Source: a virus. Taken from it: 61,875 nt of DNA. The stretch lies in UHGV virus genome UHGV-0856201; one strand, 5' to 3'. Below, one piece after another: positions 17,507 through 61,875 of this stretch. A program made the position numbers and the translations under genes. The first letter of the stretch is position 1, and every line of letters starts with the position of its first letter. The notes under the pieces were generated by a model. The model was not told the origin of the DNA and did not search any database. It was given only the letters and a program-made list of their open reading frames with translations.

Positions 17507-17526
17507 CATGGTGGTTGGTAGTGGTT

Positions 17527-17549: not shown

Positions 17550-17550
17550 G

Positions 17551-17718: not shown

Positions 17719-17739
17719 CGTCTTATCCTCAGTTCGTTT

Positions 17740-17792
17740 CGTTGAGTTAAAGATACCTTAACAGGTGTAATTCGTCAAGAATTATTTTAAAT
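17740..17792 (-). promoter_or_regulatory. conserved phage early promoter (copy 5)
   Basis: ttcgtcaagaattattttaaat; -35 TTGACG 17773-17778 (minus). Confidence 0.6.
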
Positions 17793-18574: not shown

Positions 18575-18588
18575 TTCCGGGCGTTTTC
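18564..18588. terminator. putative bidirectional terminator
   Basis: gcccggttagttccgggc then gttttc, between convergent genes. Confidence 0.45.
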
Positions 18589-19485
18589 ATTTATGTAGTC
18601 GAGGATTGCAGGAGAGTATTTAAACCACTCTGTAGCACCGTCAAAGCCTTTGAGACGCGCATTAAGTTCACGGAAGACCTTGTGTACCTCTTGTTCCAGT
18701 TTGTAAGCATCAGCGCCGTGTGGAAACAGGTACGACACGAGTTTAACCACTGGGTGTGTTGTTTCGCGTTGTAGTTGTCGTAGTCGCCGTTTTAAGTCGT
18801 TTGTGATACCGACTTTAAGCAGAGTAGGGCACTTTTTATCGTCAGCTAACACGTAGAGTGTACCGGGTTCTGACGGGTTAAAACCTGTTTGTGAACACTG
18901 AGGACAACCATGTTTTTTATGCAAATGCATGGCTGGACGTTGTTCAAACACTCCATGCTCTGGGCAGATGATTTTTATTCGAGTGAAATTGTTAATATAC
19001 GCCACCAACGAATAGTCGTAACGGTCCCCATGAACTTCGCGAGCACGAGTAATGAAATCTTCGGCGCCTAAGCGTTTTTGTTCAGACGACTGTTTACGAG
19101 CACATTGTGGGCAACCTTTCCCGTGAACATGATTGCCCGGTGTCTGTTCAAACACATCATGTATCGGACAGATAATCTTCACAGGTGTGCACCAATTCAC
19201 ATACTCCACCAGCGAATAGTCATACTTGTCACCATGAACTTCACGAGCACGAGTGATAAACTCTTCTGTGGTTAAACGTTTTTGTTCAACAGTACATTGG
19301 GTACAACCTGCTTTCATTGAAGTGTGATTGTTCGGAGTCTGTTCAAATACCCCGTGTTCGGGGCAGATAATTTTTACTTTGGTGTTAGCACCTTCATACT
19401 CCACTAGCGAGTAATCGTATTTGTGCCCATGAACTTCACGGGCACGCGTGATAAACTCTTCTGTGGTTAAACGTTTCCTACTCAT
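18571..19485 (-). CDS. T5orf172-domain protein with three Zn-ribbon repeats, paralog 3
   Basis: Three repeats of FITRAREVHGxKYDYSLV..KIICPEHGVFEQ; C-terminal GTLYVL..LKVGIT..GFDGATEWF. Confidence 0.65.
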   Translation of the reverse strand: MSRKRLTTEEFITRAREVHGHKYDYSLVEYEGANTKVKIICPEHGVFEQTPNNHTSMKAGCTQCTVEQKRLTTEEFITRAREVHGDKYDYSLVEYVNWCTPVKIICPIHDVFEQTPGNHVHGKGCPQCARKQSSEQKRLGAEDFITRAREVHGDRYDYSLVAYINNFTRIKIICPEHGVFEQRPAMHLHKKHGCPQCSQTGFNPSEPGTLYVLADDKKCPTLLKVGITNDLKRRLRQLQRETTHPVVKLVSYLFPHGADAYKLEQEVHKVFRELNARLKGFDGATEWFKYSPAILDYINENARN

Positions 19486-19486
19486 C

Positions 19487-19666
19487 TTATTTGTCGCTTT
19501 TTAACACAGACCAGATTAACGCACCTAACCAACCGACGAATGTCCAACCCGCAAAGATGTTAAGTAAAATAATTGCTGTTTGTTGTTTATGTTTAACGTT
19601 AATCGCGATGAGTGCTGGGATCAGATATACAGCAGCGATTAAGAAAAGAATGATGAAAGTAGCCAT
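19487..19666 (-). CDS. small membrane protein, superinfection-immunity-like
   Basis: 59 aa MATFIILFLIAAVYLIPALIAINVKHKQQTAIILLNIFAGWTFVGWLGALIWSV; resembles Imm_superinfect family. Confidence 0.45.
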   Translation of the reverse strand: MATFIILFLIAAVYLIPALIAINVKHKQQTAIILLNIFAGWTFVGWLGALIWSVLKSDK

Positions 19667-19689
19667 TTTGTAACCCTCCTTTGTTTTGA

Positions 19690-19738
19690 TGTTTGTAGGT
19701 TACACGTCCTTGTGTAATCCATCAAGAATTATTTTAAA
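19690..19738 (-). promoter_or_regulatory. conserved phage early promoter (copy 6)
   Basis: ccatcaagaattattttaaacg; -35 TTGATG; upstream segment near-identical to copy 1. Confidence 0.55.
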
Positions 19739-46664: not shown

Positions 46665-47468
46665 TTATTGACCCATCATATCTTTATACATCATCAAAAC
46701 AACATCATCCGGCATATTATCTACATCGCAATGCGGGTTGTGTGATAACGCATACAACCTGATTTTCTCCTTCAAATCGCTGACATCGACTACAGGTGCT
46801 TCCACTCGTGCTACAGGTGCTTCCACTCGTGCTACAGGTGCTTCCACTCGTGCTACAGGTGCTTCCACTCGTGCTACAGGTGCTTCCACTCGTGCTACAG
46901 GTGCTTCACAAACCATCACGTTAAACGGTGTCCCGGTGTCTTCGTATTTTTCAAGCAAATCGACCATTACATTTACACATTCCGGGATCCATCCCCGGCG
47001 CAAACCATTCTGAATCCAACTGTCAGTAATTGTGTGTTCATTTAAATTCCTGCGTAACACGTATCTTGCACATTCAAAATTACCACACATCGCCTCAAAC
47101 CGTGTCCACACGTCGTGACCGTGAACAGCTTCCAGGATCTGTGAATCAACGTATCTGACACGTTGCCAGTAGTTATTAGCAAAACGCCTGTGTGGTAATT
47201 TCTGACGCAGTTCGGTAACCGGTATTGTGTGTTTAAGAACAATGTTTTCGTCAGAATGTTGTACTGACAAGGGTGACAGTGTGAAGTCAGTAATCTCTTC
47301 AAGAATAATACTGATCGTTTCATATTTAGGATGAAACCTACCGCTTAACCATTGGTTGTAACGACCAACAGTTACCTTAACACCTCGACGATTAAGGTAT
47401 TCAACAGCATTTTGTACCCCGCCTTTTAAATCTATCAATTCGTCTAAAAGGTTCTTTTTCATTATCAC
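46665..47468 (-). CDS. hypothetical protein with EAPVARV x6 repeat
   Basis: 267 aa; HTH-like N-terminus; adjacent to iteron-rich region. Confidence 0.5.
   Translation of the reverse strand: MIMKKNLLDELIDLKGGVQNAVEYLNRRGVKVTVGRYNQWLSGRFHPKYETISIILEEITDFTLSPLSVQHSDENIVLKHTIPVTELRQKLPHRRFANNYWQRVRYVDSQILEAVHGHDVWTRFEAMCGNFECARYVLRRNLNEHTITDSWIQNGLRRGWIPECVNVMVDLLEKYEDTGTPFNVMVCEAPVARVEAPVARVEAPVARVEAPVARVEAPVARVEAPVVDVSDLKEKIRLYALSHNPHCDVDNMPDDVVLMMYKDMMGQ
46788..46915 (-). repeat. 21-bp tandem repeat (6 units) inside CDS
   Basis: tccactcgtgctacaggtgct repeated head to tail. Confidence 0.9.
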
Positions 47469-47479
47469 CCCTCCTTATT

Positions 47480-48050
47480 TAACCACGGGTAAATCATAAC
47501 TCGTGTTAGCAGCTAGTGCAAGATGTGCTTTATATGTTAGTGTATTTACACCTAATGCATGTTGTGCTTTAGCAGCTAGTGCAAGATGCACGTTGTGTAT
47601 TAGCTGTTAGTGCACGTTGTGTATCTATGTTGGTACAGCTAATGCATGTTGTGCTTTATATAGTGCATATTGTGCATTAAAGTTATACTTAACATAGATT
47701 TCGTCATGTTTATTTTTTAACCAACCTCTCTCTATCTTATTCTTTTTATTATCTTTTTATAGATAACATAGAAAACATAGATATAAAGAAGAAGTAGTAT
47801 AGAAAGATAGAGATAGTGCATATAGTGTATTAGCTGTAAATAGAGCTAAAATAAAAGTCTGGGAGATACCTATTGTAATCTATGTTTTTATGCAAGTCTT
47901 TGAAATGATTGTGATTATGGGTTACGTATTTATGTATGTGGTCGAAAATTAGTGCATGTTGTGCACTAACTGTAAACTTAATACTAACATTGTATTAGCT
48001 GTAAAACAGGCCGTGTAGACAACCCGCGGGTATCTGTGGGAAACTAATTT
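47480..48050. other. iteron-rich AT-rich intergenic region (candidate origin / pac / operator array)
   Basis: Multiple agctagtgcaagatg and tgcatgttgtgc copies; second copy of the ~90-bp block at 8421-8510. Confidence 0.45.
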
Positions 48051-48072
48051 AAAATTTATGGGAGACAAATTT

Positions 48073-48708
48073 ATGAAAATTTCAGACCGGGCTAAAAGGG
48101 CTGCTCTGGAGTTAACAACAGATCAACTCCGTTTCGCTAACCTGTGGTTAGATCGTGTCAATAACGGCTTCAGCAACGCTCAGTGCGTCTTACACGCTTA
48201 TCCGGGGCATAAAGACCCTGACGCAGCTAAAGTCACCGCACACCGCCTCCTGTCGAATACAAAGGTGTTGAACTATCTGGACGCGATGGGGAGTCATGCG
48301 CTTGAGTCTGTCGGGGAATCGTTAACGAGTCGTGTCGAGTGGTGGAAACGAGCGGCAAGCACGGCTGAAGAATTACTGGAACCGTATTGTCAGCGCGTTA
48401 TCGTCCCTGGCGAAGACGACACAGAAGCGAAACACCTGTGGGTGAACAGTACCGACGATATCCCCAGCCATCTGCAACAGTACGTAGTTTGCTACAAACG
48501 TTACATGCTGGGCGGATATATTCTGGTGACGCGTGAATTGTTCGATCCGAAAACTCGTGCAAAAGCGTCTGAACAACTGGATAAGATCACCGGGAACAGT
48601 ATCGACCGTGTGGAATTGTCTGGCGTGGTTGGTAACGTGGTTCAGAGTGTTCCTGAAGGTGCAACTATCGACGACATCGCGCAACTGTACCAGAAAGCAC
48701 TTAAATAA
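48073..48708 (+). CDS. terminase small subunit
   Basis: Start MKISDRAK; N-terminal DNA-binding-like region (LTTDQLRFANLW...NAQCVLHAY) resembles Terminase_2 family. Confidence 0.55.
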   Translation: MKISDRAKRAALELTTDQLRFANLWLDRVNNGFSNAQCVLHAYPGHKDPDAAKVTAHRLLSNTKVLNYLDAMGSHALESVGESLTSRVEWWKRAASTAEELLEPYCQRVIVPGEDDTEAKHLWVNSTDDIPSHLQQYVVCYKRYMLGGYILVTRELFDPKTRAKASEQLDKITGNSIDRVELSGVVGNVVQSVPEGATIDDIAQLYQKALK

Positions 48709-48800
48709 CGCCGGAAACCGTTTGCGTTTTCGATAAACAGGGTTGAGTGGCACAAGTGTACTGGTGAGAGTATTAAATTCGTCAGAGAGCGTTTTAGAAA

Positions 48801-48818
48801 GCCGGGTTAATTCCCGGC
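48801..48818. terminator. putative bidirectional terminator hairpin
   Basis: gccgggttaattcccggc between convergent genes. Confidence 0.45.
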
Positions 48819-48826
48819 GATGTTTG

Positions 48827-49033
48827 TTACTGTGCTACAACTTCAAAAACTGTCCGTTCTGTACCGTTATCAAAACGACCTAAAGCAAAACGACCATCTT
48901 CACGCTTGTGAACGTTCCATGCCAGACCCTGGTGATATACAATCATGTCATCAACATCCAGTGAAACAACAGCGCCGATTTTAAAAGCGCCTGACATCAT
49001 ATCTTTAGCGCGTTTGATTACTTTCAGTTCCAT
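48827..49033 (-). CDS. hypothetical protein
   Basis: 68-aa ORF at end of island operon. Confidence 0.35.
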   Translation of the reverse strand: MELKVIKRAKDMMSGAFKIGAVVSLDVDDMIVYHQGLAWNVHKREDGRFALGRFDNGTERTVFEVVAQ

Positions 49034-49059
49034 TTTTCAGTTCCTCACAATTCGTTGTC

Positions 49060-49112
49060 TATGTAAGTAATTTACACGTCCTTGTGTAATCCGTCAAGAA
49101 TTATTTTAAACT
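49060..49112 (-). promoter_or_regulatory. conserved phage early promoter (copy 11)
   Basis: ccgtcaagaattattttaaactg; -35 TTGACG 49092-49097 (minus). Confidence 0.6.
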
Positions 49113-49348
49113 GCAATTAACCAATCATCAGCTAAAATATCAGTTTGACTTGCAAGCCACGGAACAAACTTGTTATCGGCGGTTTTCATACCGATCCACG
49201 GGAGAGCATCCGGGGCTTCATACTCAAAGGCCACTTTGTCAGCGATGTCTGCTGGCACCAGTTTTAACCACATGCCTTTTCCATTCCACCCGGAACGGCA
49301 AACGCGCTTACCTTCTTTCATCATTGTAACTGCTTCGCCAAAATTCAT
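49106..49348 (-). CDS. DUF2829-family protein (Tad2-like, candidate anti-Thoeris sponge)
   Basis: Likely start MNFGEAVTMMKEGKRVCRSGWNGKGMWL; later KTADNKFVPWLASQTDILADDW; pattern matches my recollection of DUF2829. Confidence 0.55.
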   Translation of the reverse strand: MNFGEAVTMMKEGKRVCRSGWNGKGMWLKLVPADIADKVAFEYEAPDALPWIGMKTADNKFVPWLASQTDILADDWLIAV

Positions 49349-49349
49349 A

Positions 49350-49508
49350 CTATTCACCTTTTAAATATTCGTCATTACCTGCAACCCAGAAACGATCACC
49401 AACATCAGGTGACGATTCCCAGGGCATTTTTTCAGTTACTTCAATTTCAACTTCCCCGTGTTCATTACGGTTAATAATTTTCACGGGTACACCGTCATAG
49501 GTTTTCAT
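49350..49508 (-). CDS. small hypothetical protein (52 aa)
   Basis: [52 protein letters not shown]; coupled between rdgC and DUF2829 gene. Confidence 0.3.
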
Positions 49509-50419
49509 CGTTTCGCTTCCCCACCCAAAGCCGTGATAAGTTGTTTAATCAGCGCCTGAAGTTCACCTGTCATTAGTACAAAATCAGCGTCAAATCGTGC
49601 CAGTCCATCTTCAAGGTCAATATCGTCGTTCTGGTCGAGCAACCCGTCGCAGAATTTCACACGGTTTAACGTCATGCTGTCAGTTAGTGTAAACGTTACC
49701 CGCTGCTGCCAGTCCATCGCCAGCTTTGTAACGACTTTCCCTGCTTCAATATGTGTGGCTATTTCATCACTGGTTAAATCCTGTTTTTTAACGCGTGCAA
49801 CACCGCCATCAGTCAGGATCGCTTTCAGTTCCGCAGAATCACCCATTGTAAAACCTGTTGGCGCGTTTCCTGAACGTACCCACTCCGTTGTTGTCAGTTC
49901 AACAGGGTTTTCCATCGTCAGCGGGACGACTGGCAGACTACCCAGGGATTTACGCAACAGCGCTAACGCATCTTCAGCCCGTTTAGCACTGGGCGCATCA
50001 ACCACGATCAACCCGCTAGTGATATCAATCCACAACTGTGTACGACTGTTTTTAACGAACGCCCGTGGTAACAGACTGTGCAACACTTCGTCTTTCAGCG
50101 CGTCTTTCTCTGTTTTCTTCAGCTTACGCGCCTGTTCAGTTTCCAGTTTGGCGATTCGCGCGTTCAGATGCTGTTTAATGACCGGACCAGGAATAATCTT
50201 TTCCTGTTTCTGGATGGTCAGCAGATATTGCCCGTTAGCCTGGTGAACCAGTGTATAATGTTGTTCGGTTGCCGGAACCCAACCAGTACGCGCCATATCC
50301 TGTGAACCGCAAGGATTGAATTGAAACGTACACAAGCTGTCTTCCAGCGTTGGCAACTGGGTCATTAATGCCATCGGGTTGGTCAGACGATAAATAATAG
50401 CGTTTTTAAAGAAGTTCAT
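49505..50419 (-). CDS. rdgC: recombination-associated protein RdgC homolog
   Basis: Full-length collinear similarity to E. coli RdgC ([79 protein letters not shown]). Confidence 0.85.
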
Positions 50420-50496
50420 AGTTGTTTTCCTGTTTAATTTATGAATGAGATAATCAACCGTTTTGGTTTACTTTTCACATAATCAACCAAAGCATT

Positions 50497-50730
50497 TCAT
50501 TTCCGGTTCCTTCTTTTCTTCGCCTCGCATCGGGCTTTTGCAATACTTGTTTTACGATGTGGTTGTTTACGGCCAGTAATAAGTCGTTGTGGTGGAACAC
50601 CCCATAAAGTATTGTTCAGACCATAATTATCTGCCGAATAATACAAACCGTTGGCGGTGATAATTACATTCGGATCGTACACAGTAACTTTCCGAAAACA
50701 GTTGATAATTGTTGTTTTCGTACTCATCAT
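50497..50730 (-). CDS. hypothetical protein
   Basis: 77 aa with basic C-terminus. Confidence 0.35.
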   Translation of the reverse strand: MMSTKTTIINCFRKVTVYDPNVIITANGLYYSADNYGLNNTLWGVPPQRLITGRKQPHRKTSIAKARCEAKKRRNRK

Positions 50731-50993
50731 ACGTTCACCACTTTTAAATCAGGTGTCAGACTACGATGGTCATGATGACCGTTCATAGTAAATGAGAAAG
50801 TGTAATTGCACTGTTCATCGTTGAACGTGAAGGGGGTTTGAAACCCTGTATCGTCAGCGATGCGAACTTTAACCGGGTATTCAGCTTGCGGATCGACTGC
50901 TACAACAGTACCAAACGGTTTAGATTTGCGACGTGCGAGAATTTCTAACAATCGTGGACTGGTGATTTCTACGTGTTGACCAGTTTTAAACAT
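50727..50993 (-). CDS. hypothetical protein
   Basis: Start MFKTGQHV with RBS ggag, first gene after promoter copy 12. Confidence 0.4.
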   Translation of the reverse strand: MFKTGQHVEITSPRLLEILARRKSKPFGTVVAVDPQAEYPVKVRIADDTGFQTPFTFNDEQCNYTFSFTMNGHHDHRSLTPDLKVVNV

Positions 50994-51014
50994 GGTAATA
51001 ACTCCAGTTGTTTT

Positions 51015-51066
51015 ACACAAACTGAAGTCTATCTGACAATGCGTAAACCGTCAAGAATTATTTTAA
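51015..51066 (-). promoter_or_regulatory. conserved phage early promoter (copy 12)
   Basis: ccgtcaagaattattttaaactg; -35 TTGACG 51049-51054 (minus); -10 tagact. Confidence 0.6.
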
Positions 51067-51235
51067 ACTGTCCGTCACTGCCTGCAGCGTAACAAATACC
51101 GTGACTGTAGATTGTCGCAGTTCGTGTAATGCGTTGATAGTCTGAGCATTGGTTACGAATACGCAGGTCATACCCGGACTGTATAATCAGCCAGGTTGCA
51201 ATGATGGCGAGTAATTTTAAAACGTATCTGAACAT
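51029..51235 (-). CDS. small hydrophobic protein (uncertain)
   Basis: MFRYVLKLLAIIATWLII with RBS aggag; 3' end overlaps promoter copy 12. Confidence 0.3.
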   Translation of the reverse strand: MFRYVLKLLAIIATWLIIQSGYDLRIRNQCSDYQRITRTATIYSHGICYAAGSDGQFKIILDGLRIVR

Positions 51236-51296
51236 GTTCCACACTCCTGTTTGATAGTTTCAGGGTAGTGTGGAACTGGTGAAGATGGTATAGGAT

Positions 51297-51695
51297 TTAC
51301 GATAATTTAACAGTTAACCCGGCGTTGGTCAGAACGTTAGCGACATCGCGCACACCAGCTTCATATCCGTCTATAGGTGTTGCGGATGATTTAATACAAA
51401 TGCCAGTATGCTTTGGTAATTCAATTACCAACTGTTCCCGGCTGGCTTTCCACATGTCCCACGCGCGATTCAAACGATCGCCTTCTTCCACGGTGTACTC
51501 GTCATCTTTCCTTAATTTTTCTAAGACGTTTTTTGGTGTTCCGTATTTGTCTGAATAACACGCTTCAAACTGTTCACGACTCTTATCCACTTTTTCAACC
51601 CTCCACCCATATTTGGCACGATTCATAGCGGTCCGTTCATCATTCGTGGTGAACAGTACGTACCCGGATTTATGACAAATGTTCCAAGTCGTCAT
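51297..51695 (-). CDS. hypothetical protein
   Basis: 132-aa ORF. Confidence 0.4.
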   Translation of the reverse strand: MTTWNICHKSGYVLFTTNDERTAMNRAKYGWRVEKVDKSREQFEACYSDKYGTPKNVLEKLRKDDEYTVEEGDRLNRAWDMWKASREQLVIELPKHTGICIKSSATPIDGYEAGVRDVANVLTNAGLTVKLS

Positions 51696-51747
51696 TTCGC
51701 TAATACACCAATAATGAAAATTAGCATGTAGAATAAAACATTACGGG

Positions 51748-51906
51748 TCATAATTTATAAACCTTAAAATTACCGCCTGAATAGCGATGTTTACCACACA
51801 ACTTACAACGGTGTTCCTGAGTGGCGTAATTACGTTCATCACCGTGGGTAGTACGATATAAATACCATTCGTGTTTACAGAATAATCGTTTGAGAAATAT
51901 CTTCAT
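51748..51906 (-). CDS. small zinc-ribbon protein (52 aa)
   Basis: MKIFLKRLFCKHEW...HRCKLCGKHRY; two Cys pairs; below ORF-track cutoff. Confidence 0.3.
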   Translation of the reverse strand: MKIFLKRLFCKHEWYLYRTTHGDERNYATQEHRCKLCGKHRYSGGNFKVYKL

Positions 51907-51909
51907 AGT

Positions 51910-52140
51910 TCAATAACCCCTCCTCGACTGGTAATCAATTTTCTTCAGTGATTGTTGCACAATCTGCCAGGACGACAACATGAATAATTGCGCGTATTGC
52001 CCCAGTGCTAAATTTCGTGGTTTATCCTGATAAGCGTAAATCGTTGCAACGTCATCACCATTTAAACGGATCCGCCACGGTGTCAGAGTTGGTTTATCAC
52101 CCATGTTCGACGCGCTCCAGTAGTTCACGAATGTTTTCAA
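51910..52140 (-). CDS. hypothetical protein
   Basis: 76-aa ORF. Confidence 0.35.
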   Translation of the reverse strand: MKTFVNYWSASNMGDKPTLTPWRIRLNGDDVATIYAYQDKPRNLALGQYAQLFMLSSWQIVQQSLKKIDYQSRRGY

Positions 52141-52420
52141 TTACACGTTGTTTTGTCTGAGTAGTGACACATGCACCATCGGTACGCCCAAAAGTTTCTA
52201 ACACGGTTTGAAGTGCTTGATACATTTCAGGACTGTTTAACATTAATGACAGGTTACCCCGGAGTTCCTGGAGTTTTTCTTGTTCTTCGTTTGGTAAGTA
52301 ACAAGGGTCTTCCATTTTAATAACCACTTGCGCGATTGCCCCGTGGTCTGGTGATGAAATGCTCACATGATTTTCAACCCACCCTTCATCTTTAAACCAC
52401 GGTAATTGTGAACATTTCAT
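52097..52420 (-). CDS. hypothetical protein
   Basis: Start at MKCSQLPW (52420) preferred over upstream Met. Confidence 0.4.
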   Translation of the reverse strand: MKCSQLPWFKDEGWVENHVSISSPDHGAIAQVVIKMEDPCYLPNEEQEKLQELRGNLSLMLNSPEMYQALQTVLETFGRTDGACVTTQTKQRVIENIRELLERVEHG

Positions 52421-52527
52421 AATATTTACCTTTTTGTTTAGTGACAAGATATCTCTTCAACCCGACATGCACCAAAATCTTTAAGTTCATTTTTAGTAAT
52501 TTTCATTCTGTATAACCCTCTGTTCAT

Positions 52528-52617
52528 TTACCGACTGATTTTAGACCCAACATATATACCTGCGAACACGGTTAAAGCACCCATGATAAAGCCTATTGCA
52601 AACGTATATTCTTCCAC
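52528..52617 (-). CDS. small hydrophobic leader peptide (29 aa, GTG start)
   Basis: RBS aggag then GTG; (V/M)EEYTFAIGFIMGALTVFAGIYVGSKISR; downstream of promoter copy 13. Confidence 0.25.
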   Translation of the reverse strand: MEEYTFAIGFIMGALTVFAGIYVGSKISR

Positions 52618-52639
52618 GATTCACTACTCCTGTTCATTT

Positions 52640-52692
52640 GATAACCAGATTCTAGTTGTTCACCTGTAATCTGTCAAGAATTATTTTAAATC
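52640..52692 (-). promoter_or_regulatory. conserved phage early promoter (copy 13)
   Basis: ctgtcaagaattattttaaatc; -35 TTGACA 52673-52678 (minus); -10 tagaat. Confidence 0.6.
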
Positions 52693-52753
52693 TCTGTTAC
52701 CACCCGTCACCCGTGGTAAACTGTACAGAACAATTACAAACGGACCGATAACC

Positions 52754-54517
52754 ATGAATAAGTTTACTGGAAATATTCATAATTACCCGCGCTGGCGTGA
52801 TGCCTACGCAAACGACGAACGTATCTGGCGAAAAGGTCAGCCACGACCGGATTACAAACAGTGTTACATTGACCGTATTAACCTGTTAAATCGTATGCGC
52901 ACGGATCGGGCAATTGTCCCGGTACTGAAAAAGTATTACGAAACAAACCCTGTAGCGTTCATTCTCGACTGGGCGTTTACTTATGACCCGCGTAACGTTG
53001 GTACTGAATACCCGCCAAACATGCCTTTCTGCCTTTTCGAACGTCAAATCGACATGGTTCAGTTTGTTTACGAAGCGCTTGAAGACAAAGAAAAGGGGCT
53101 TTGGGAAAAATCGCGAGATTATGGTGCGACCTGGGTAGCCTGTGGTTTGTCCGTGTGGGCGTGGTTGTATCGTCCTGGTTCGTCAGTCGGCTGGGGTTCA
53201 CGTAAAGAACAGCTTGTCGATAAACTGGGTGACCCGGATAGTATTTTTGAAAAGATTCGCCAGATTATCCGCGCATTACCACCGGAATTACGTCCTATTA
53301 GTCTGCGTGAAAAAGACCATCTGGTTTACACGAAATGTATCAACCCTGAAAACGGTGCGACAATTACTGGTGAAGCTGGCGATAACATCGGTCGTGGTGG
53401 TCGTAAATCTGTTTATTTTTTGGACGAAGCAGCACACGTAGATCGTCCTGAACTGATTGAAGCGTCGTTGTCAGCTAACACCAACGTTCGAATTGATATC
53501 AGTTCCGTTAACGGTGTTGGTAACGTTTTTTATCGCAACCGTAAAGCTGGTCTGGAATGGGAACCTGGCAAGAAATTACCCCGTGGTAAATTGCGTGTCA
53601 TGGTTCTGGACTGGCGTGATCACCCGGCTAAAGACGACGAATGGTATAAACGAGAAAAACAATCGTTCGCTGAAAAGGGTTTACAGCATATTTTCGCACA
53701 GGAAGTTGACCGCGATTATGCAGCTGCTGTCCAGGGTGTACTGATTAAAGCTGAATGGGTACGTGCTGCTTTTGACGCTTTCCGTGACACAGAATGGCGC
53801 AAAGCTAACGGACTACTTACACCAACAGGTCAACGTATCGCCGGACAGGACGCAGCAGACGGTGGTGAAGACGCAAGCGCACTGGTAATTGCTCACGGTG
53901 TATTCCTGACACATCTGCAACTTGACCACAGAGGCGCTGAACTGGCTGCACCAGGGATGTTGACGATGGCTAATATGCTGGGTGTTGATGAATACTGGTA
54001 CGAAGTTAACGGTGTTGGTACAGGCGTTAAAGTAGCGGCAAACGACCGGAAAGATACTTTACGCTTCCGTGTGCGCCCGTGGTTACCGAATGGAAAAGTT
54101 GTGGATCCGGGTGGTGATATTATTGGTGGTACAAAACCTGGTGACAAAGACCGTAAATCAAACAAAGATTATTTCTCAAATTATAAAGCACAAGCATCGT
54201 GGGCGTTACGCCTGCGTTGTCAGCGAATTTATAAATGGTATGTGGAAGGTCAACCACAGGATCCGGACGAAATCATTCTGATTGATCCGTCACTGGAAAA
54301 CGCACAACGGTTAGAAGCTGAGTTAAGTCAGCCAACGTATACCAGTAACGGTGCCGGGAAGATTGTGATCGACAAGAAACCAAACGGAAGTAAGTCACCA
54401 AACTTTTTCGATGCTGCGGTTATTGCACTATCACCAAAACGCACTGAATTTGTCGAAGAACCATTTACTGGTGGTGTGAACCCTGTTGGTACTCCTGAAT
54501 ACGGTGACATTTTTTAA
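52754..54517 (+). CDS. terminase large subunit
   Basis: 587 aa; Walker B-like VYFLDEAAH; size and position before portal; followed by strong terminator. Confidence 0.65.
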   Translation: MNKFTGNIHNYPRWRDAYANDERIWRKGQPRPDYKQCYIDRINLLNRMRTDRAIVPVLKKYYETNPVAFILDWAFTYDPRNVGTEYPPNMPFCLFERQIDMVQFVYEALEDKEKGLWEKSRDYGATWVACGLSVWAWLYRPGSSVGWGSRKEQLVDKLGDPDSIFEKIRQIIRALPPELRPISLREKDHLVYTKCINPENGATITGEAGDNIGRGGRKSVYFLDEAAHVDRPELIEASLSANTNVRIDISSVNGVGNVFYRNRKAGLEWEPGKKLPRGKLRVMVLDWRDHPAKDDEWYKREKQSFAEKGLQHIFAQEVDRDYAAAVQGVLIKAEWVRAAFDAFRDTEWRKANGLLTPTGQRIAGQDAADGGEDASALVIAHGVFLTHLQLDHRGAELAAPGMLTMANMLGVDEYWYEVNGVGTGVKVAANDRKDTLRFRVRPWLPNGKVVDPGGDIIGGTKPGDKDRKSNKDYFSNYKAQASWALRLRCQRIYKWYVEGQPQDPDEIILIDPSLENAQRLEAELSQPTYTSNGAGKIVIDKKPNGSKSPNFFDAAVIALSPKRTEFVEEPFTGGVNPVGTPEYGDIF

Positions 54518-54680: not shown

Positions 54681-55376
54681 ATGTCTGACATGACTTTAGT
54701 TCCCACTGGCGGTTTCGGCGGTGAAGCTGGCGCGGCTGCACTTGGTGGTGGTATCGGCGGTCTTATCGGTTCCTGGTTCGGTAACGGCTGGGGTGGCGGT
54801 GGTGGCTGGGGTGGTCGCGGTAACTTTGGTGGTCCTGTAGAAGTTCAAGCCTCTGTAGATACCAACGCTATTCTGCAAGCCATCAATAACGGTGCTCTTC
54901 AGACCATTCAGGGTCAGAATGGTACAAACCTGACCGTTGAACGCGCTGCAGCTTCCACTTTTAACGGTATCACTCAACAGAACACACAAAACCTGCTGGC
55001 ATCTGTACAAGGTTTTGCAGGTCTGAACACGCAGATTCAACAGGGTACTAACACTGTGACCAATGCGATCTGTGCATCTGAAACTGCGGCACTGACTCGT
55101 TCTTTCCAGGCACAGTTAGCGGCTGAGAAGTGTTGTTGCGAAACCAACCTGAACATTGAACGTCAGGCAGAAGCAACTCGTGCACTGATCCGTGACCAGT
55201 TCGCACAGTCTCAGGCTGTTCTGATTTGTGACCTGAAATCTCAGATTCAAACCCGTGACTTCCAGTTGTCTCAATTATCACAAACGTCTCAGTTGGAGTG
55301 CAAAATTAACCAGGTCGATCAGCTTATTAACTTCAAGCTGCCTACTCCGCAAACTCCACCGACTGGCTGCTGCTAA
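54681..55376 (+). CDS. Gly-rich / Gln-Asn-rich protein with Cys motifs
   Basis: N-terminus GGFGGEAGAAALGGGIGGLIGSWFGNGWGGGGGWGGRGNFGG; CCC internal and C-terminal GCC; RBS aggag. Confidence 0.5.
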   Translation: MSDMTLVPTGGFGGEAGAAALGGGIGGLIGSWFGNGWGGGGGWGGRGNFGGPVEVQASVDTNAILQAINNGALQTIQGQNGTNLTVERAAASTFNGITQQNTQNLLASVQGFAGLNTQIQQGTNTVTNAICASETAALTRSFQAQLAAEKCCCETNLNIERQAEATRALIRDQFAQSQAVLICDLKSQIQTRDFQLSQLSQTSQLECKINQVDQLINFKLPTPQTPPTGCC

Positions 55377-55426: not shown

Positions 55427-55786
55427 ATGCATTACAAACCGTATTACGTTATCAAAAAAGACGATGATGACGATGAAGAGGAAGATGTAGAAATTCATCA
55501 CCACCATCATTATCACCACGGGCATCACCCGGACACGATGGGAGTATTTCATCATGATAGCTCTGTTAGCGAACATGGTTCAGTTATGGCCCATGTTAAA
55601 GCACGTATGGATAACCCTCCTTCGACTTGGGCGTCGTACCACGATAAGCCCGGCGGGATGATGTCCATTGTTGAAATGGAATATCGCGAACTAATGGAAG
55701 AAAAAGCCGAAGGTTCGACGTCTGGTATTAAAAAAGAGCTAACAGATCTGGCTGCAGCCTGTATCAACGCGCTTAAAAAGATGTAA
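55427..55786 (+). CDS. His-rich acidic protein
   Basis: DDDDDEEEDVEIHHHHHYHHGHH near N-terminus; 119 aa. Confidence 0.45.
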   Translation: MHYKPYYVIKKDDDDDEEEDVEIHHHHHYHHGHHPDTMGVFHHDSSVSEHGSVMAHVKARMDNPPSTWASYHDKPGGMMSIVEMEYRELMEEKAEGSTSGIKKELTDLAAACINALKKM

Positions 55787-57040: not shown

Positions 57041-57201
57041 TAGTCCCGATAAACTTCAGCACACCCGTAATTTTTACCAGGGTTGTAAGCCTGTTCAGCT
57101 TGTAAAGCACCCTGACACTGTTCGAACGTCATGATGCGTTCTGTCACAGGTTCAATAGCCACACCGTATAGAACAAGCACCAGTACATAACCAATTAACA
57201 T
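57040..57201 (-). CDS. small membrane/secreted protein (53 aa)
   Basis: MLIGYVLVLVLYGVAIEPV...; TAATG-type overlap with downstream gene. Confidence 0.3.
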   Translation of the reverse strand: MLIGYVLVLVLYGVAIEPVTERIMTFEQCQGALQAEQAYNPGKNYGCAEVYRD

Positions 57202-57530
57202 TCTCTTAGAGTCTCCGCCCAGTCCAGACCATGTAGGTTTACAGTTGCAAGCCTCACTTTTGGGATACCGTAACGACGATTATCCCAAAATTCATCACAG
57301 AGTTCTGGTTCACTAAAATACCCGTAAACAACCCCGTAACTATTCGTGGCTATATAGTCAATATCTTCAGGAACAGTTAAAGACAAACCAAAATAATTGA
57401 CCGTTTTATACACGTCTGCACTAGCCAGTGTCATTTTACAATCTGGTGCTTCTTCGTGGATATCCCACGATTTACCACAATGCGAACACTGATATTCATC
57501 ATTACAGCGAATAGCGTTTACATGATTCAT
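57195..57530 (-). CDS. hypothetical Cys-containing protein
   Basis: CNDEYQCSHCGKSWDIHEEAPDC; 111 aa. Confidence 0.4.
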   Translation of the reverse strand: MNHVNAIRCNDEYQCSHCGKSWDIHEEAPDCKMTLASADVYKTVNYFGLSLTVPEDIDYIATNSYGVVYGYFSEPELCDEFWDNRRYGIPKVRLATVNLHGLDWAETLREC

Positions 57531-57542
57531 GATTATTCTTCC

Positions 57543-57878
57543 TCAGTTACGGATGATACCGTTGATGGAATGTGAATTAGCACATGACTTTGTAGTAATA
57601 TTTCCATTAACTGTTTTGATATTACCGCTATCCCCAGTGACAGAAACATTACCATTAACCGTTTTGATATCTCCACTGTTTCCTGAAATGTTAACTTCAC
57701 CGTTAGTCGTTTCAATGGATTCGACATCACCATAAACACTGATCGATATGTTACCAACCAGATTACCATCAACCTGTATGCCATCAACAATTACTTTATC
57801 ACCGTTAATTTCAAATTTACGCCCTGTAAATTCACGACCGTCAATTATTACTTTACCATTACTCATATTTATTTTCAT
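57543..57878 (-). CDS. beta-solenoid repeat protein (bactofilin-like)
   Basis: Repeats VIVDGIQVDGNLVGNISISVYGDVESIETTNGEVNISGNSGDIKTVNGNVSVTGDSGNIKTVNGNI. Confidence 0.45.
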   Translation of the reverse strand: MKINMSNGKVIIDGREFTGRKFEINGDKVIVDGIQVDGNLVGNISISVYGDVESIETTNGEVNISGNSGDIKTVNGNVSVTGDSGNIKTVNGNITTKSCANSHSINGIIRN

Positions 57879-58195
57879 TTAACTGTCTCCGGTACAAACC
57901 ACATTGACGCAAGATATGCACACCCGGCAATTTTATGTTCGTGTTTAGGTTCGAAACTACCCAGGATCACTTTGATATGTGCGTGAGCATCTTTAAAGTT
58001 CACACCTTCAACAGCAACTGCGTATTCTTTCAGACCGTTGAAAAACCATTTGCTGATCCACTGATTCCACGGGTTAGAATTTTCGAAAAATTCTTTCGGA
58101 ATACTACCCATCGTCGGGAGGAATTCAGCAATGTTTTTAGGTCCAAAAGCAATATCCAGTTGTGTAATATTTTCATTCGGTTTCATAGTCATCAC
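57875..58195 (-). CDS. hypothetical protein
   Basis: 106 aa; first gene after promoter copy 15. Confidence 0.4.
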   Translation of the reverse strand: MMTMKPNENITQLDIAFGPKNIAEFLPTMGSIPKEFFENSNPWNQWISKWFFNGLKEYAVAVEGVNFKDAHAHIKVILGSFEPKHEHKIAGCAYLASMWFVPETVK

Positions 58196-58209
58196 CCTTC
58201 GTTCATTTG

Positions 58210-58260
58210 ATGACTAAAGCATAATCGCAAGTTTGCAATCCGTCAAGAATTATTTTAACA
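58210..58260 (-). promoter_or_regulatory. conserved phage early promoter (copy 15)
   Basis: ccgtcaagaattattttaacacc; -35 TTGACG 58241-58246 (minus). Confidence 0.6.
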
Positions 58261-59717: not shown

Positions 59718-60050
59718 TTACTTAGCTTCAGGTTGCACGATTGACAGTAATTTGCTCGCTTCATCAACCGCAGTCTGAATACGAGTCTGTAACGGATAAC
59801 TGTTGTTGATCGCACGTTCCAGCGTTTTATCAAGCAATTGCAGTTTGACTTCATCATCGCCAGTGAACGCGTACATGTCAGCAACGACTTCCTTAAACTG
59901 TGATGCTTTCTCAACGATAGTTGTGGTTACAATGTAGTTCCAGACTTTGTTGAGTAGTTTAAATTTCACTTCGTTGTCAGCAACTGCATCAACCAGAATT
60001 TCAGCAGCAGTCTTGTCATATTTAACAAGCTCAAGAATTTCAAAACGCAT
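59718..60050 (-). CDS. hypothetical protein
   Basis: 110-aa ORF; RBS ggagaagac; co-transcribed with 1685-2029 across the circular join. Confidence 0.4.
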   Translation of the reverse strand: MRFEILELVKYDKTAAEILVDAVADNEVKFKLLNKVWNYIVTTTIVEKASQFKEVVADMYAFTGDDEVKLQLLDKTLERAINNSYPLQTRIQTAVDEASKLLSIVQPEAK

Positions 60051-60060
60051 TTAAGTCTTC

Positions 60061-60187
60061 TCCTGTCAGTTAACATACTTCGCGATCAGTTTATCACAGT
60101 CCTCGCGACAGGTAGCATACTTAAACAGGTCACTTGCTGCTTCTGCCCGGTAGTCAGTATCAATAGTGTAATGTTCATTGACATAGT
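60061..60187. repeat. 127-bp exact repeat of phage start (1681-1807); circular-contig overlap
   Basis: 60061-60187 identical to 1681-1807; length 127 equals a common assembler k-mer size. Confidence 0.9.
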
Positions 60188-60287
60188 NNNNNNNNNNNNN
60201 NNNNNNNNNNNNNNNNNNNNNNNNNNNNNNNNNNNNNNNNNNNNNNNNNNNNNNNNNNNNNNNNNNNNNNNNNNNNNNNNNNNNNNN
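60188..60287. other. 100-N scaffold gap
   Basis: Run of exactly 100 N. Confidence 1.
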
Positions 60288-60414
60288 CGTGAATTGTTCG
60301 ATCCGAAAACTCGTGCAAAAGCGTCTGAACAACTGGATAAGATCACCGGGAACAGTATCGACCGTGTGGAATTGTCTGGCGTGGTTGGTAACGTGGTTCA
60401 GAGTGTTCCTGAAG
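60288..60414. repeat. 127-bp exact repeat of phage 48532-48658 (inside terS)
   Basis: Identical to terS internal segment; diverges into anellovirus sequence at 60415. Confidence 0.9.
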
Positions 60415-61454
60415 ACAAACAACAACTAGAGCAACACGCAGGAAACCCTTTTACATCAGAATATTTAACTAATCCAGAAGGACTATTCACAAGCACAAAA
60501 GACCCTACAAACTTTTTTCTACAATTTACAGAAAAAACACAAGCACTTGAAACACATAAAACAACATTAAACTACAATCACCTACAACACCCATTAATAT
60601 TAGAAACAAGATACAATCCAAATAAAGACCAAGGCCTACATAACAAAGCATATGTACTACCAGTAAACAAACCAGGAGTTAACTGGACACCACCAAATGA
60701 TGAAGACTTAATATTAGAAGGATTTCCAATATGGTTACTAATATTTGGATTTATAGACTACATTAAAAAAACTCAAAAGCTAATTAATGTAGACGAAAAA
60801 CATGTACTATGCATACAAACATCTAACACAAACCCAAAATGGGACCAACCTATTATACCACTCTCATATACATTTGAAGAAGGACACAGCCCTTACAGCA
60901 AACAATTAAACCCATATGACACAGACAAATGGTATCCACAAATACAATACCAAGAAGAAGCCATAAATGATATTATAAAATGTGGACCAGGAACAGCTAA
61001 AATAGGAGACAGACTTAGTGAAGAGATTAAATGTGAATATGAATTTTATTGGAAATGGGGAGGACATCCACCTAAAATGCTAACTATAGACAATCCTGCA
61101 CAACAGGGAACATATCCCATACCCCGTAACAGCATCACATCAAATTCGTTACAGAATCCAGCAACACCACCAGAGTACTTCTTATACAGCTTCGACGAAA
61201 GACAGGGACTGCTTACAAAAACAGCTGCAAAAAGAATTAGAAAAGACTGGGAATCTAAAGACTATGTATCTGACTTTACAGAATCAACAAAAGAAGTCCC
61301 AATGCAAACACTCCAAACATCATCCGACGAAACATCGGACTCGGAAAAAGAAGAGGAGACACTACTCCAGCAGCTCCACCGACAGCAACAGCACCAGAAG
61401 CAGCTCAAGCGCCGAATTCTCAGATTAATGCAGAAAAATCCAAATTTAGAATAA
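60415..61454 (+). CDS. Anellovirus ORF1 C-terminal portion (partial)
   Basis: A-rich, Thr/Asn/Lys-rich ORF ending in Ser/Glu-rich and basic tail; composition matches 510-1619. Confidence 0.65.
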
Positions 61455-61658
61455 TACAATGTACTCAATATGTTAAACTGTTTGATGATAAAACTGTAAA
61501 AAATAGACGCATGAATAAGTATGAAATGGAACATGAAAAAGATGTAGCTAAAGCCTTTTGTAGACCACCAAAAAAATTCTTACTTGATGTACCATACTAC
61601 CCATGGGTAGACATCCCAGAACCACTTGTAAACTTTCACCTGAGATATAACTTTGATG

Positions 61659-61664
61659 AATAAA
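61659..61664 (+). promoter_or_regulatory. polyadenylation signal (AATAAA)
   Basis: aataaa ~200 nt downstream of ORF1 stop, as in anelloviruses. Confidence 0.5.
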
Positions 61665-61749
61665 CAAGGCCAACAATATTCACTTAGTGGTGTCAGTTTA
61701 TATAAGTTAAAACCTAAATAAACATCCGTTACCAATTGAAATTTGTTGG

Positions 61750-61840
61750 CGCCAAAAGGGGGCTCCGCCCCCTTTAACCCCCAAGGGGGCTCCGCCCCCT
61801 TAAACCCCCAAAGGGGGCTCCGCCCCCTTAAACCCCCGGA
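61750..61840. repeat. Anellovirus GC-rich region with three ~27-bp repeats
   Basis: gggggctccgccccc at 61758, 61785 and 61813, each followed by ttaaaccccc. Confidence 0.8.
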
Positions 61841-61875
61841 AACCACAAAATTTGCATTGCCGACCACAAACGAAC

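What the first reader, a model, noticed from the sequence alone, without database searches (positions are those of the whole stretch)
48827..52700. Accessory island between terS and terL: ~12 small minus-strand genes under three early promoters
terS and terL are normally adjacent; here ~4 kb of opposite-strand genes lies between them, driven by promoter copies 11-13 and bounded by hairpin terminators. Contents include a DUF2829 (Tad2-like) protein, an rdgC homolog, small zinc-ribbon and hydrophobic peptides, and several proteins with no recognisable motifs. Placement and composition fit a host-takeover / anti-defense island and make this the best place in the window to look for uncharacterised anti-defense functions.
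Basis: partly seen in the sequence, partly recalled or inferred. Interest (0 to 1): 0.7.

Follow-up and report, generated by a model that had tools for sequence, protein, structure and literature searches.

The report
Variable early-gene island splitting terminase genes
A 4-kb block of small backward-facing genes sits between the two DNA-packaging genes of this 9NA-like E. coli phage; this layout is normal for its lineage, gene content varies between relatives by swapping at a repeated promoter, and the block carries one recognisable immune-evasion gene (a Tad2 sponge) among mostly unknown genes.

Summary
Between terS (48058-48708,+) and terL (52754-54517,+) lie 11 tightly packed minus-strand ORFs plus one or two mini-ORFs. 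They form three units behind three exact copies of a 22-nt sigma-70-type promoter core (15 copies in the window, 0.01 expected). Only the terS end has a hairpin.

The window is a 9NA-like siphophage (Nonanavirus/Sashavirus). All 31 GenBank phage records with this terS have terS and terL split, by 0.9-5.6 kb. Across 25 islands I found 70 gene families, 36 of them singletons, around a syntenic backbone that includes RdgC.

Three products are identifiable:
- a Tad2/DUF2829 sponge with 10 of 12 gcADPR-contact residues identical to HgmTad2; present in 2 of 25 islands and recently exchanged with a Klebsiella phage;
- a homologue of Gp54(Bas11), the CapRel(SJ46) trigger; present in 5 of 25 islands;
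- an RdgC 65% identical to E. coli RdgC.

The other genes match nothing informative.

Mosaic breakpoints fall on the promoter cores. Sasha carries a P3/P1 hybrid promoter and 536P12 a P2/P1 hybrid. This parallels the T4 PeSL cassettes.

Verdict: a real accessory early-gene island of a known kind. The "anti-defence island" label is only partly supported. Early timing is inferred, not shown.

The parts
48058..48708 (+). terS (terminase small subunit); left boundary of the island
   Evidence: phrog_51 3.4e-12. Pfam Terminase_2 only 0.0094, below its cut-off. 81-100% identical to proteins annotated as terS in relatives.
48801..48818 (.). G+C hairpin GCCGGGTTAATTCCCGGC where terS and the island transcripts converge; probably a weak bidirectional terminator
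   Evidence: Terminator scan. dG -14.1 (+) and -12.8 (-) kcal/mol, z -2.4 and -3.7. Homology with several relatives (PJ16, Sasha, Sergei, SP069) runs through it. T-tracts are weak.
48827..49033 (-). 68-aa Gp54-family protein; the only gene of the P1 unit
   Evidence: PF25180 'Phage antiviral trigger protein Gp54' 3.4e-18, 65.6 bits against a cut-off of 27. PDB 9axb Gp54 4.9e-8. Present in 5 of 25 islands.
49069..49107 (-). Promoter P1: conserved core 49107-49086, -35 TTGACG 49097-49092, -10 TAAATT 49074-49069
   Evidence: The ~82-bp block 49028-49110 is an isolated homology island in most relatives.
49106..49357 (-). 83-aa Tad2-like (DUF2829) protein (alternative ATG start at 49348 gives 80 aa); predicted sponge for TIR-made ADPR-derived signals
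   Evidence: PF11195 2.8e-26. Solved Tad2 structures 1.3e-17 to 7e-17 over the full length. GWNG loop and WLASQTD are identical to the HgmTad2 gcADPR contacts. Present in 2 of 25 islands; 98% aa and 93% nt identity to Klebsiella phage VLCpiS10a.
49350..49508 (-). 52-aa protein of unknown function
   Evidence: ORF overlaps its neighbours by 4-8 nt. Present in 9 of 25 islands. No family match.
49505..50419 (-). 304-aa RdgC homologue
   Evidence: PF04381 2.6e-114. E. coli RdgC 2OWL 6.6e-127, 65% identity over the full length. phrog_724. Present in 20 of 25 islands.
50497..50730 (-). 77-aa protein with a basic C-terminal tail; unknown function
   Evidence: Family present in 20 of 25 islands. No family match.
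50727..50993 (-). 88-aa lineage-restricted protein; first gene of the P2 unit
   Evidence: Present in 20 of 25 islands. Its 71 database homologues include 9NA-like phage proteins and contigs of about 56-59 kb; many others lie on short contigs. AF2 pLDDT 53.6, unusable.
51026..51064 (-). Promoter P2, embedded in the last codons of the TM-protein gene: -35 TTGACG 51054-51049, -10 TAGACT 51031-51026
   Evidence: Homology with 536P12 and 9NA starts exactly at 51043.
51029..51235 (-). 68-aa protein with an N-terminal TM helix; the most conserved gene of the island
   Evidence: phrog_38795 5e-36. Present in 22 of 25 islands.
51297..51695 (-). 132-aa protein with a conserved 37-aa N-terminal module and a variable remainder; unknown function
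51748..51906 (-). 52-aa CxH...CxxC protein (putative zinc ribbon)
   Evidence: Sequence. phrog_3036 9.5e-8. Present in 14 of 25 islands.
51910..52104 (-). 64-aa protein of unknown function
   Evidence: phrog_31372 7.6e-36. Present in 17 of 25 islands.
52097..52420 (-). 107-aa protein of unknown function (ATG start; the ORF listing TTG start at 52447 is less likely)
   Evidence: phrog_33811 and phrog_1273. Lineage-restricted, no Pfam domain, no PDB match. Present in 16 of 25 islands.
52438..52506 (-). 22-aa ORF; probably the 5' remnant of a larger 9NA-gp10-type gene
   Evidence: The first ~15 aa match the N-terminus of the first P3-unit gene in 9NA, Sergei, PDP46 and 536P12. phrog_21347 positions 1-15 of 186.
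52528..52617 (-). 29-aa hydrophobic peptide (GTG start, AGGAG 9 nt upstream); first ORF of the P3 unit
   Evidence: Sequence. 90% identical in Bas82, where 29-aa genes are annotated, and 79% in VLCpiS10a.
52649..52687 (-). Promoter P3: -35 TTGACA 52677-52672, -10 TAGAAT 52654-52649 (11 of 12 consensus matches); diverges from terL
   Evidence: Homology with 9 relatives on the terL side ends at 52658-52668.
52754..54517 (+). terL (terminase large subunit); right boundary of the island
   Evidence: phrog_2 5.6e-17. 86-99.5% identical to proteins annotated as terL in relatives.

Best explanation
The region is the largest of several backward-facing cassettes of small genes that interrupt the late (virion and packaging) genes of 9NA-like siphophages.

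Transcription (inferred). Host sigma-70 RNA polymerase reads the region from three near-identical strong promoters, each with an A/T-rich upstream element, TTGACR, a 17-nt spacer and a -10-like hexamer. This gives three leftward units:
- P3: 29-aa peptide, 107 aa, 64 aa, Zn protein, 132 aa, TM protein.
- P2: 88 aa, 77 aa, RdgC, 52 aa, Tad2.
- P1: Gp54-like.
With no internal terminators, transcripts read through to a shared hairpin next to terS. Expression should therefore start as soon as the DNA enters, before packaging genes are needed.

Functions.
- Shown at sequence level: Tad2 keeps the ADPR-signal pocket, so it most likely sequesters 3'cADPR-type Thoeris signals.
- Inferred: RdgC, 65% identical to the host protein, most likely binds dsDNA and restrains RecA.
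- Unknown role for the phage: Gp54-like belongs to a family that a CapRel defence protein senses.
- The remaining small proteins are unassigned host-interaction candidates.

Evolution.
- Shown comparatively: a backbone of about 8 genes is kept, while the cassette ends and some internal slots turn over.
- Inferred mechanism: the identical 22-nt promoter cores serve as recombination joints. Crossovers there delete, swap or import whole promoter-plus-gene cassettes.
For: Lineage and architecture. Every relative has terS and terL split by a minus-strand block, and Bas82 has at least five more such blocks among its late genes.

Promoters: 15 copies against 0.01 expected, with proper -10 spacing and a start codon 60-70 nt downstream. 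One to three copies occupy equivalent positions in all 14 enterobacterial relatives' islands that were scanned.

Proteins:
- Tad2.
- Gp54.
- RdgC.

Variability: 70 families in 25 islands, 36 singletons; Tad2 in 2 of 25 and Gp54 in 5 of 25.

Recombination at promoter cores:
- Sasha's single promoter joins the P3 upstream context to the P1 downstream context.
- 536P12 joins P2 upstream to the P1 UTR and Gp54.
- 9NA homology starts at the first base of the P2 core.
- 39 of 274 homology endpoints lie within 10 bp of a core, against 8.8 expected.
- The block shared with VLCpiS10a at 93% nt identity (P1 promoter plus most of its 5' UTR, Tad2 and the 52-aa gene) sits between flanks of 75-79% identity.

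No defence-system, RNA-family or structural-protein signal was found.
Against: - No expression data exist for this phage group in what I could read. Timing is inferred from sequence, and one copy of the same promoter (8605,+) precedes the scaffold/capsid operon.
- Only one of about 13 genes belongs to a validated anti-defence family.
- Homology endpoints at promoter cores are partly expected simply because promoters are conserved between variable genes, and the endpoints are not phylogenetically independent.
- Gene boundaries are equally frequent breakpoints.
- Tad2 ligand specificity varies within the family: 3'cADPR, His-ADPR, N7-cADPR, cUMP (PMC12393519).
- Bas82, with the backbone only, is not notably defence-resistant.
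Confidence: 0.6

Rival explanations
1. A generic early or host-takeover and DNA-metabolism region. The conserved backbone (RdgC, TM protein, small basic and Zn proteins) manages host recombination, replication and membrane physiology for the phage's own cycle. Tad2 and Gp54 are occasional passengers, so the block is not an anti-defence island as such.
For: Backbone genes occur in 14-22 of 25 islands, while Tad2 and Gp54 are rare. RdgC is a recombination modulator, and the phage also encodes its own exonuclease and annealase. Bas82 is defence-sensitive. No other anti-defence family was detected in 60 family representatives.
Against: Small rapidly exchanging early genes are where anti-defence genes are typically found. 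Known-family searches cannot detect new inhibitors. Sasha dispenses with almost the whole block (896-bp gap), so the backbone is not needed for the basic cycle.
Confidence: 0.25
2. The block mainly encodes superinfection-exclusion or phage-versus-phage defence functions (small membrane proteins and DNA binders) rather than counter-defence.
For: Two small hydrophobic or TM products lie in the island: the 68-aa TM protein, which is its most conserved gene, and the 29-aa peptide. Other minus-strand cassettes of Bas82 carry an annotated superinfection immunity protein.
Against: No PADLOC hit for any of 10 proteins. Tad2 is a counter-defence protein. This is a virulent phage with a short window in which exclusion would pay off.
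Confidence: 0.07
3. The promoter-like repeats are primarily binding or recombination sites rather than early promoters. For example, they could bind a phage regulator, or cause transcriptional interference with the convergent and divergent late genes. The block's timing would then not be early.
For: The conserved core (22 nt plus flanking TTT) is longer than sigma-70 recognition needs, while the -10 varies. One copy precedes the capsid operon.
Against: Each copy has a correctly spaced -10-like hexamer and a start codon 60-70 nt downstream, and most have an evident AGGAG/GAGG-type Shine-Dalgarno sequence. Copies also head the replication modules. The A/T-rich upstream part fits an UP element (established knowledge).
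Confidence: 0.08

Closest known systems
Genes 2-10 region of Salmonella phage 9NA and the equivalent blocks of Sasha, Sergei, Solent, SP069, AVIO78A, PJ16, PDP46, Bas82 and the Klebsiella/Proteus relatives
   Same: Same position between terS and terL, same strand, same promoter core, shared backbone genes at 70-98% aa identity.
   Different: No GenBank record covers more than 79% of window 48000-53000. This combination, Tad2 plus Gp54-like at the terS end, is not found in any of the 24 compared islands.
Hyperplastic regions and PeSL (promoter-early stem-loop) cassettes of T4-type phages (PMC2839356, PMC4122927)
   Same: Small, mostly unknown early genes flanked by a repeated conserved early-promoter motif. 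Indels and swaps between relatives have their junctions in the motif.
   Different: A siphovirus lineage with a different motif. In this window the promoter copies are not coupled to a stem-loop terminator. The cassettes lie antisense within the late gene cluster.
Tad2 anti-Thoeris sponge family (SPO1 Tad2, HgmTad2/AcrIIA7, MoTad2; PDB 8sme, 8kbi, 9eib)
   Same: Single DUF2829 domain of the same length, with full-length alignment. The GWNG loop and WLASQTD strand that contact gcADPR are conserved.
   Different: About 45-50% identity at most. The short beta2-beta5 insertion resembles SPO1 Tad2, so the cyclic-dinucleotide pocket of HgmTad2 is probably absent. Ligand and phenotype are untested.
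Gp54 of phage Bas11, a direct activator of CapRel(SJ46) (PMC11578894; PDB 9axb)
   Same: Same Pfam family and length; a small non-structural protein in a variable region.
   Different: Low identity to the Tunavirinae homologues (47%). Even close Gp54 homologues fail to trigger CapRel(SJ46), so no trigger activity can be inferred.
E. coli RdgC (PDB 2OWL), a toroidal dsDNA-binding dimer and negative modulator of RecA (PMC1885664)
   Same: 65% identity over all 304 residues.
   Different: Encoded by a virulent phage in a putative early operon. No role in infection has been shown.

Membership tests
Tad2 (Thoeris anti-defence 2, DUF2829) | DUF2829/Tad2-like domain above Pfam's curated threshold | tested here: met
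   PF11195: 92.3 bits against a cut-off of 25, residues 4-81 on profile positions 1-72 of 73.
Tad2 (Thoeris anti-defence 2, DUF2829) | Full-length sequence similarity to experimentally characterised and solved Tad2 proteins | tested here: met
   8v3e/9eib 1.3e-17, SPO1 Tad2 8sme 6.8e-17, HgmTad2 8kbi 1.3e-13.
Tad2 (Thoeris anti-defence 2, DUF2829) | Conservation of the gcADPR-contact residues described for HgmTad2 (W21, N22, G23, M76, A78, T82, V84, W87, L88, S90, T92, D93) | tested here: met
   10 of 12 are identical: W24, N25, G26, M57, V65, W67, L68, S70, T72, D73. A78 becomes T and T82 becomes K. Residue list from PMC10680739; alignment.
Tad2 (Thoeris anti-defence 2, DUF2829) | Tetramer that sequesters the signal, and rescue of phage plating on Thoeris hosts | not testable with these tools
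   Needs binding assays and plaque assays.
Gp54 (phage antiviral trigger protein, PF25180) | Pfam domain above threshold and similarity to the solved Gp54(Bas11) | tested here: met
   65.6 bits against a cut-off of 27; 9axb 4.9e-8 over residues 2-65.
Gp54 (phage antiviral trigger protein, PF25180) | Direct activation of CapRel(SJ46) | not testable with these tools
   Homologues from SECphi27, Bas5, Bas8 and Bas10 do not activate it (PMC11578894), so activity cannot be inferred from homology.
RdgC | Full-length RdgC domain and close similarity to E. coli RdgC | tested here: met
   PF04381 382 bits; 2OWL 6.6e-127, 198 of 304 identical.
RdgC | Ring dimer that binds dsDNA and inhibits RecA | not testable with these tools
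   Biochemistry required.
PeSL-type mobile regulatory cassettes (T4-type phages) | A repeated, conserved early-promoter motif flanking variable small ORFs | tested here: met
   Three exact cores in the island and 15 in the window. One to three at equivalent sites in each enterobacterial relative.
PeSL-type mobile regulatory cassettes (T4-type phages) | A stem-loop terminator coupled to each promoter copy | tested here: not met
   No hairpin next to P1, P2 or P3 in this window. Some relatives have a terminator annotated just upstream of their P1 copy (AVIO78A, Sergei). So it works like a PeSL cassette but is not a member.
PeSL-type mobile regulatory cassettes (T4-type phages) | Indel or swap junctions between relatives lie inside the motif | tested here: met
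   Sasha has a P3/P1 hybrid, 536P12 a P2/P1 hybrid, and 9NA a breakpoint at the P2 core. Endpoints are enriched 39 against 8.8 expected, not independent.
Terminase small subunit (for the left boundary gene) | Match to a TerS profile | tested here: inconclusive
   phrog_51 3.4e-12, but Pfam Terminase_2 scores only 17 bits against a cut-off of 26.1 and NCBIfam gives nothing. The 9NA record itself calls it hypothetical.
9NA-like phages (Nonanavirus/Sashavirus) | Colinear genome with high identity of core genes | tested here: met
   terL 99.5% and terS 100% aa identity to Escherichia phages PJ16, AVIO78A and PDP46. Colinear across the junction 60187->1807.

The most novel reading that the evidence does not exclude
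The 22-nt promoter core may be a dedicated cassette-exchange site, a siphoviral analogue of T4 PeSLs. It would let 9NA-like phages of E. coli, Salmonella and Klebsiella trade promoter-plus-gene cassettes. The slots it defines would then be reservoirs of uncharacterised inhibitors of bacterial immunity. Two slots stand out: the terS-proximal P1 unit, and the position just upstream of P1, where Tad2 replaces the common 111-aa phrog_1229 gene. On this reading the phrog_1229 protein and the P1-unit genes of relatives are alternative counter-defence proteins.
Probability: 0.2. Interest if true: 0.55.

Novelty: new member of a known kind. Interest (0 to 1): 0.35.

Why it matters
The island gives a compact, promoter-delimited set of about 70 small gene families from one genomic slot in phages that plate on laboratory E. 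coli, Salmonella and Klebsiella. Bas82 is in the public BASEL collection. This makes a practical shortlist for anti-defence screening, with Tad2 as a built-in positive control. The promoter-core junctions suggest how such genes move between phages of different hosts. None of this changes current concepts: hypervariable early regions that carry counter-defence genes are already well known.

Tried and rejected
- Family searches. Pfam, PHROGs, NCBIfam and PADLOC scans of the island ORFs gave informative hits only for Tad2, Gp54 and RdgC.
- Pan-island Pfam scan. 49 representatives of the other pan-island families gave only Gp54, DUF7170, CxxCxxCC and a PAPS-reductase fragment.
- g88. The shallow alignment gave pLDDT 53.6, so I did not run a fold search. 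The idea that g88 is a Gp54-like barrel, prompted by a natural g88/Gp54 chimera (P0094), stays untested.
- g107. It has only lineage-restricted homologues and no PDB match.
- phrog_1229. This gene sits in the Tad2 slot of relatives and has no PDB or named-family match.
- Rfam found nothing in 47400-53000.
- No internal terminators were found.
- The key genomics paper on this group (Zeng et al. 2019, PMC6819911) is not held. I could not check whether the promoter repeats or the split terminase genes are already described there.
- Rejected: that the 127-bp terS copy at 60288-60414 is biological. It is an assembly artefact.

Full report
WHAT THE WINDOW IS

Megablast of 48000-53000 finds only 9NA-like siphophages (Nonanavirus/Sashavirus). 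The best are Sashavirus BDX09P1 and Escherichia phages AVIO78A, PDP46, PJ16 and Bas82, at 91-94% identity but with only 56-79% coverage. TerL is 99.5% and TerS 100% identical to those of E. coli phages of this group. The left boundary gene is TerS by PHROG (phrog_51, 3.4e-12). It stays below Pfam's threshold, and the 9NA record calls it hypothetical.

CHECK OF THE OBSERVATION

Between terS (48058-48708,+) and terL (52754-54517,+) lie 4,045 bp with negative GC skew. This stretch holds 11 head-to-tail minus-strand ORFs of 52-304 aa, several overlapping by 4-8 nt. There is also a 29-aa hydrophobic ORF that is 90% conserved in Bas82, where 29-aa genes are annotated, and a 22-aa ORF.

The 22-aa ORF matches only the first ~15 residues of the larger first gene of this unit in 9NA, Sergei, PDP46 and 536P12. 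It is probably a deletion remnant.

The motif AAAATAATTCTTGACRGNTTAC occurs 15 times in the window against 0.01 expected. Three exact copies lie on the minus strand at 49086-49107, 51043-51064 and 52666-52687. Each has TTGACR, a 17-nt spacer, a -10-like hexamer (TAAATT, TAGACT, TAGAAT) and a start codon 60-70 nt downstream.

A 6-bp G+C hairpin at 48801-48818 (dG -12.8/-14.1 kcal/mol, z -3.7/-2.4, weak T-tracts) sits where terS and the island converge. The terL side shows no structure beyond shuffles, and no internal hairpins were found.

WHAT THE GENES ARE

Tad2-like (49106-49357):
- It matches PF11195 Tad2-like at 2.8e-26.
- It aligns over its full length with solved Tad2 proteins: MoTad2 8v3e/9eib 1.3e-17, SPO1 Tad2 6.8e-17, HgmTad2 1.3e-13.
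- The HgmTad2 gcADPR contacts are listed in PMC10680739. Ten of the 12 are identical here, including the GWNG loop and a WLASQTD strand identical to HgmTad2. SPO1 Tad2 has WVPSQTD, and the His-ADPR-binding MoTad2 has WTPSVSD.
- The beta2-beta5 insertion is short, as in SPO1 Tad2.
- I therefore file it as a sequence-level member of the family. Its most likely ligand is 3'cADPR. Specificity varies within the family (PMC12393519) and activity is untested.

Gp54(Bas11) is a non-essential 66-aa protein of unknown function. It directly activates the CapRel(SJ46) defence protein, whereas its close homologues do not (PMC11578894).

RdgC (49505-50419): a full-length RdgC (PF04381, 2.6e-114), 65% identical to E. 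coli RdgC 2OWL. This suggests a host-derived gene that keeps the dsDNA-binding, RecA-restraining activity. That is inference from PMC1885664 and established RdgC biochemistry.

The other genes remain unassigned: 52, 77, 88, 68 (TM), 132, 52 (Zn), 64 and 107 aa, plus the 29-aa peptide.
- They match nothing, or only PHROGs of unknown function.
- The 132-aa protein has a conserved 37-residue N-terminal module and a variable remainder.
- The 88-aa protein is confined to this lineage and modelled poorly.

COMPARATIVE PICTURE

All 31 GenBank phage records with this terS have it separated from terL. The gap is 896 bp in Sasha, 3.1 kb in 9NA, 4.0 kb here and up to 5.6 kb in Klebsiella phage phi_270. 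It is 1.6-2.5 kb in Proteus and Morganella relatives whose TerS is only 31-34% identical. The split is therefore ancestral for the lineage, not a peculiarity of this genome.

I extracted 25 islands: the window, 15 GenBank loci and 9 IMG/VR loci. Minus-strand ORFs of 35 aa or more were clustered. This gave 314 ORFs in 70 families, 36 of them singletons.

A syntenic backbone recurs in 14-22 islands: 107 aa, 64 aa, Zn, 132 aa, TM, 88 aa, 77 aa, RdgC. Turnover is concentrated at the two ends and at slots around RdgC.

Tad2 is in 2 of 25 islands and Gp54-like in 5 of 25. In the window, Tad2 occupies the position just upstream of P1, where most relatives have a 111-aa phrog_1229 protein of unknown function.

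The stretch 49040-49508, which covers the P1 promoter, most of its 5' UTR, Tad2 and the 52-aa gene, is 93% identical in DNA to Klebsiella phage VLCpiS10a. The flanking terS and RdgC are 79% and 76% identical. This indicates recent lateral transfer.

Homologues of Tad2 (238 phage records from many host genera) and of Gp54 (148 records, mostly T1-like coliphages) show that both genes move between phage families.

PROMOTER CORES AS JOINTS

Every enterobacterial relative has one to three copies of the core at equivalent island positions.
- In Sasha, the single copy is flanked upstream by the window's P3 context and downstream by its P1 context. Everything in between is missing.
- In 536P12, the P2 context (the end of the TM-protein gene) is joined through the core to the P1 UTR and a Gp54 gene. 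Tad2 through the 88-aa gene are absent.
- In 9NA, homology begins at the first base of the P2 core.
- Of 274 homology endpoints inside the island, 39 lie within 10 bp of a core against 8.8 expected. As distinct positions, 13 of 105 do so against 3.4 expected.
- These endpoints are not independent. Promoter conservation alone produces some of the effect, and gene boundaries are also frequent breakpoints.

The pattern matches the PeSL cassettes of T4-type phages (PMC2839356, PMC4122927). It does not match in one respect: in this window the promoters are not coupled to stem-loops.

CONTEXT IN THE GENOME

The Bas82 annotation shows that the plus-strand late genes are interrupted by at least five further minus-strand clusters of small genes. 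The late genes are terL, portal, head morphogenesis, scaffold, capsid and tail. In the window these clusters and the replication modules are headed by the same promoter core.

One copy (8605,+) precedes the operon that runs into the scaffold and major capsid genes. The motif alone therefore does not prove early timing.

MECHANISM AND VERDICT

Most likely, with confidence about 0.6, the island consists of three host-RNAP-driven leftward units that read through to the shared hairpin and are expressed before packaging. It carries accessory host-interaction genes. One of them, Tad2, is a recognisable immune-signal sponge.

The island diversifies by cassette exchange at the repeated promoter. Shown: gene identities at sequence level, variability, and junction positions. 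Inferred: timing, biochemical activities, and the recombination mechanism.

The main rival, at about 0.25, is that the backbone serves the phage's own DNA and host-takeover needs and that anti-defence is incidental. This is a new member of a known kind of region. It is a reasonable screening target but would not surprise a specialist. Interest: 0.35.

Noticed in passing
window 60188-61875 and 1-1679 (with 60061-60187 = 1680-1806, and 60288-60414 = 48532-48658): The window is a chimeric scaffold. The phage genome proper is 1680-60187: relatives are colinear across 60187->1807, which gives a circle of about 58.4 kb. Then come 100 N, an exact 127-bp copy of part of terS, and about 3.1 kb of an anellovirus (TT_ORF2-like at 235-618; TT_ORF1 N-part at 510-1619 and C-part at 60415-61454). 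Joins of exactly 127 bp point to a de Bruijn assembly artefact, not biology.
   Followed up: yes
window 2077, 3580, 8293, 8605, 17767, 19714, 36853, 36916, 42219, 43768, 58235 (plus a degenerate copy at 32015): The same promoter core heads the replication modules and the other minus-strand cassettes. The copy at 8605(+) precedes the operon that contains the scaffold and major capsid genes. Some copies share much longer identical blocks: 2038-2101 against 19675-19738 (64 bp, 98%), and 39 bp shared with P1.
   Followed up: partly
window about 57195-58256, 59718-60187 with 1685-3601, 5942-8314, 17500-17790, 18571-19735: The late plus-strand virion genes are repeatedly interrupted by minus-strand clusters of small genes (one includes dUTPase), as in Bas82. 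The terS-terL block is just the largest.
   Followed up: partly
window 46665-47468 (-) and 47469-48057: A 267-aa ORF (phrog_25538) contains six tandem PVARVEA repeats. It is followed by about 590 bp of low-GC (0.36) apparently non-coding DNA just upstream of terS, which is a candidate regulatory or pac region.
   Followed up: no
proteins P0094 and P0089 (database homologues of window 50727-50993): Natural in-frame chimeras exist. One joins the N-terminal 48 aa of the 88-aa protein to the C-terminal half of a Gp54 domain. Another joins the 88-aa protein to the basic tail of the 77-aa protein. Mosaicism therefore reaches below gene level.
   Followed up: partly
window 51297-51695 (-) homologues P0001-P0018: Most full-length homologues carry a precomputed Pfam label PF26207 that is absent from the local Pfam copy, so I could not read its name. 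Several also give weak DUF5490 hits.
   Followed up: no
window 54681-55376 (+) and 55427-55786 (+): Directly after terL come two unusual proteins. One is a 231-aa protein with a glycine-rich N-terminus and a C-terminal CC (phrog_9288, unknown function). The other is a 119-aa protein with an acidic run followed by a histidine-rich tract (HHHHHYHHGHH).
   Followed up: no
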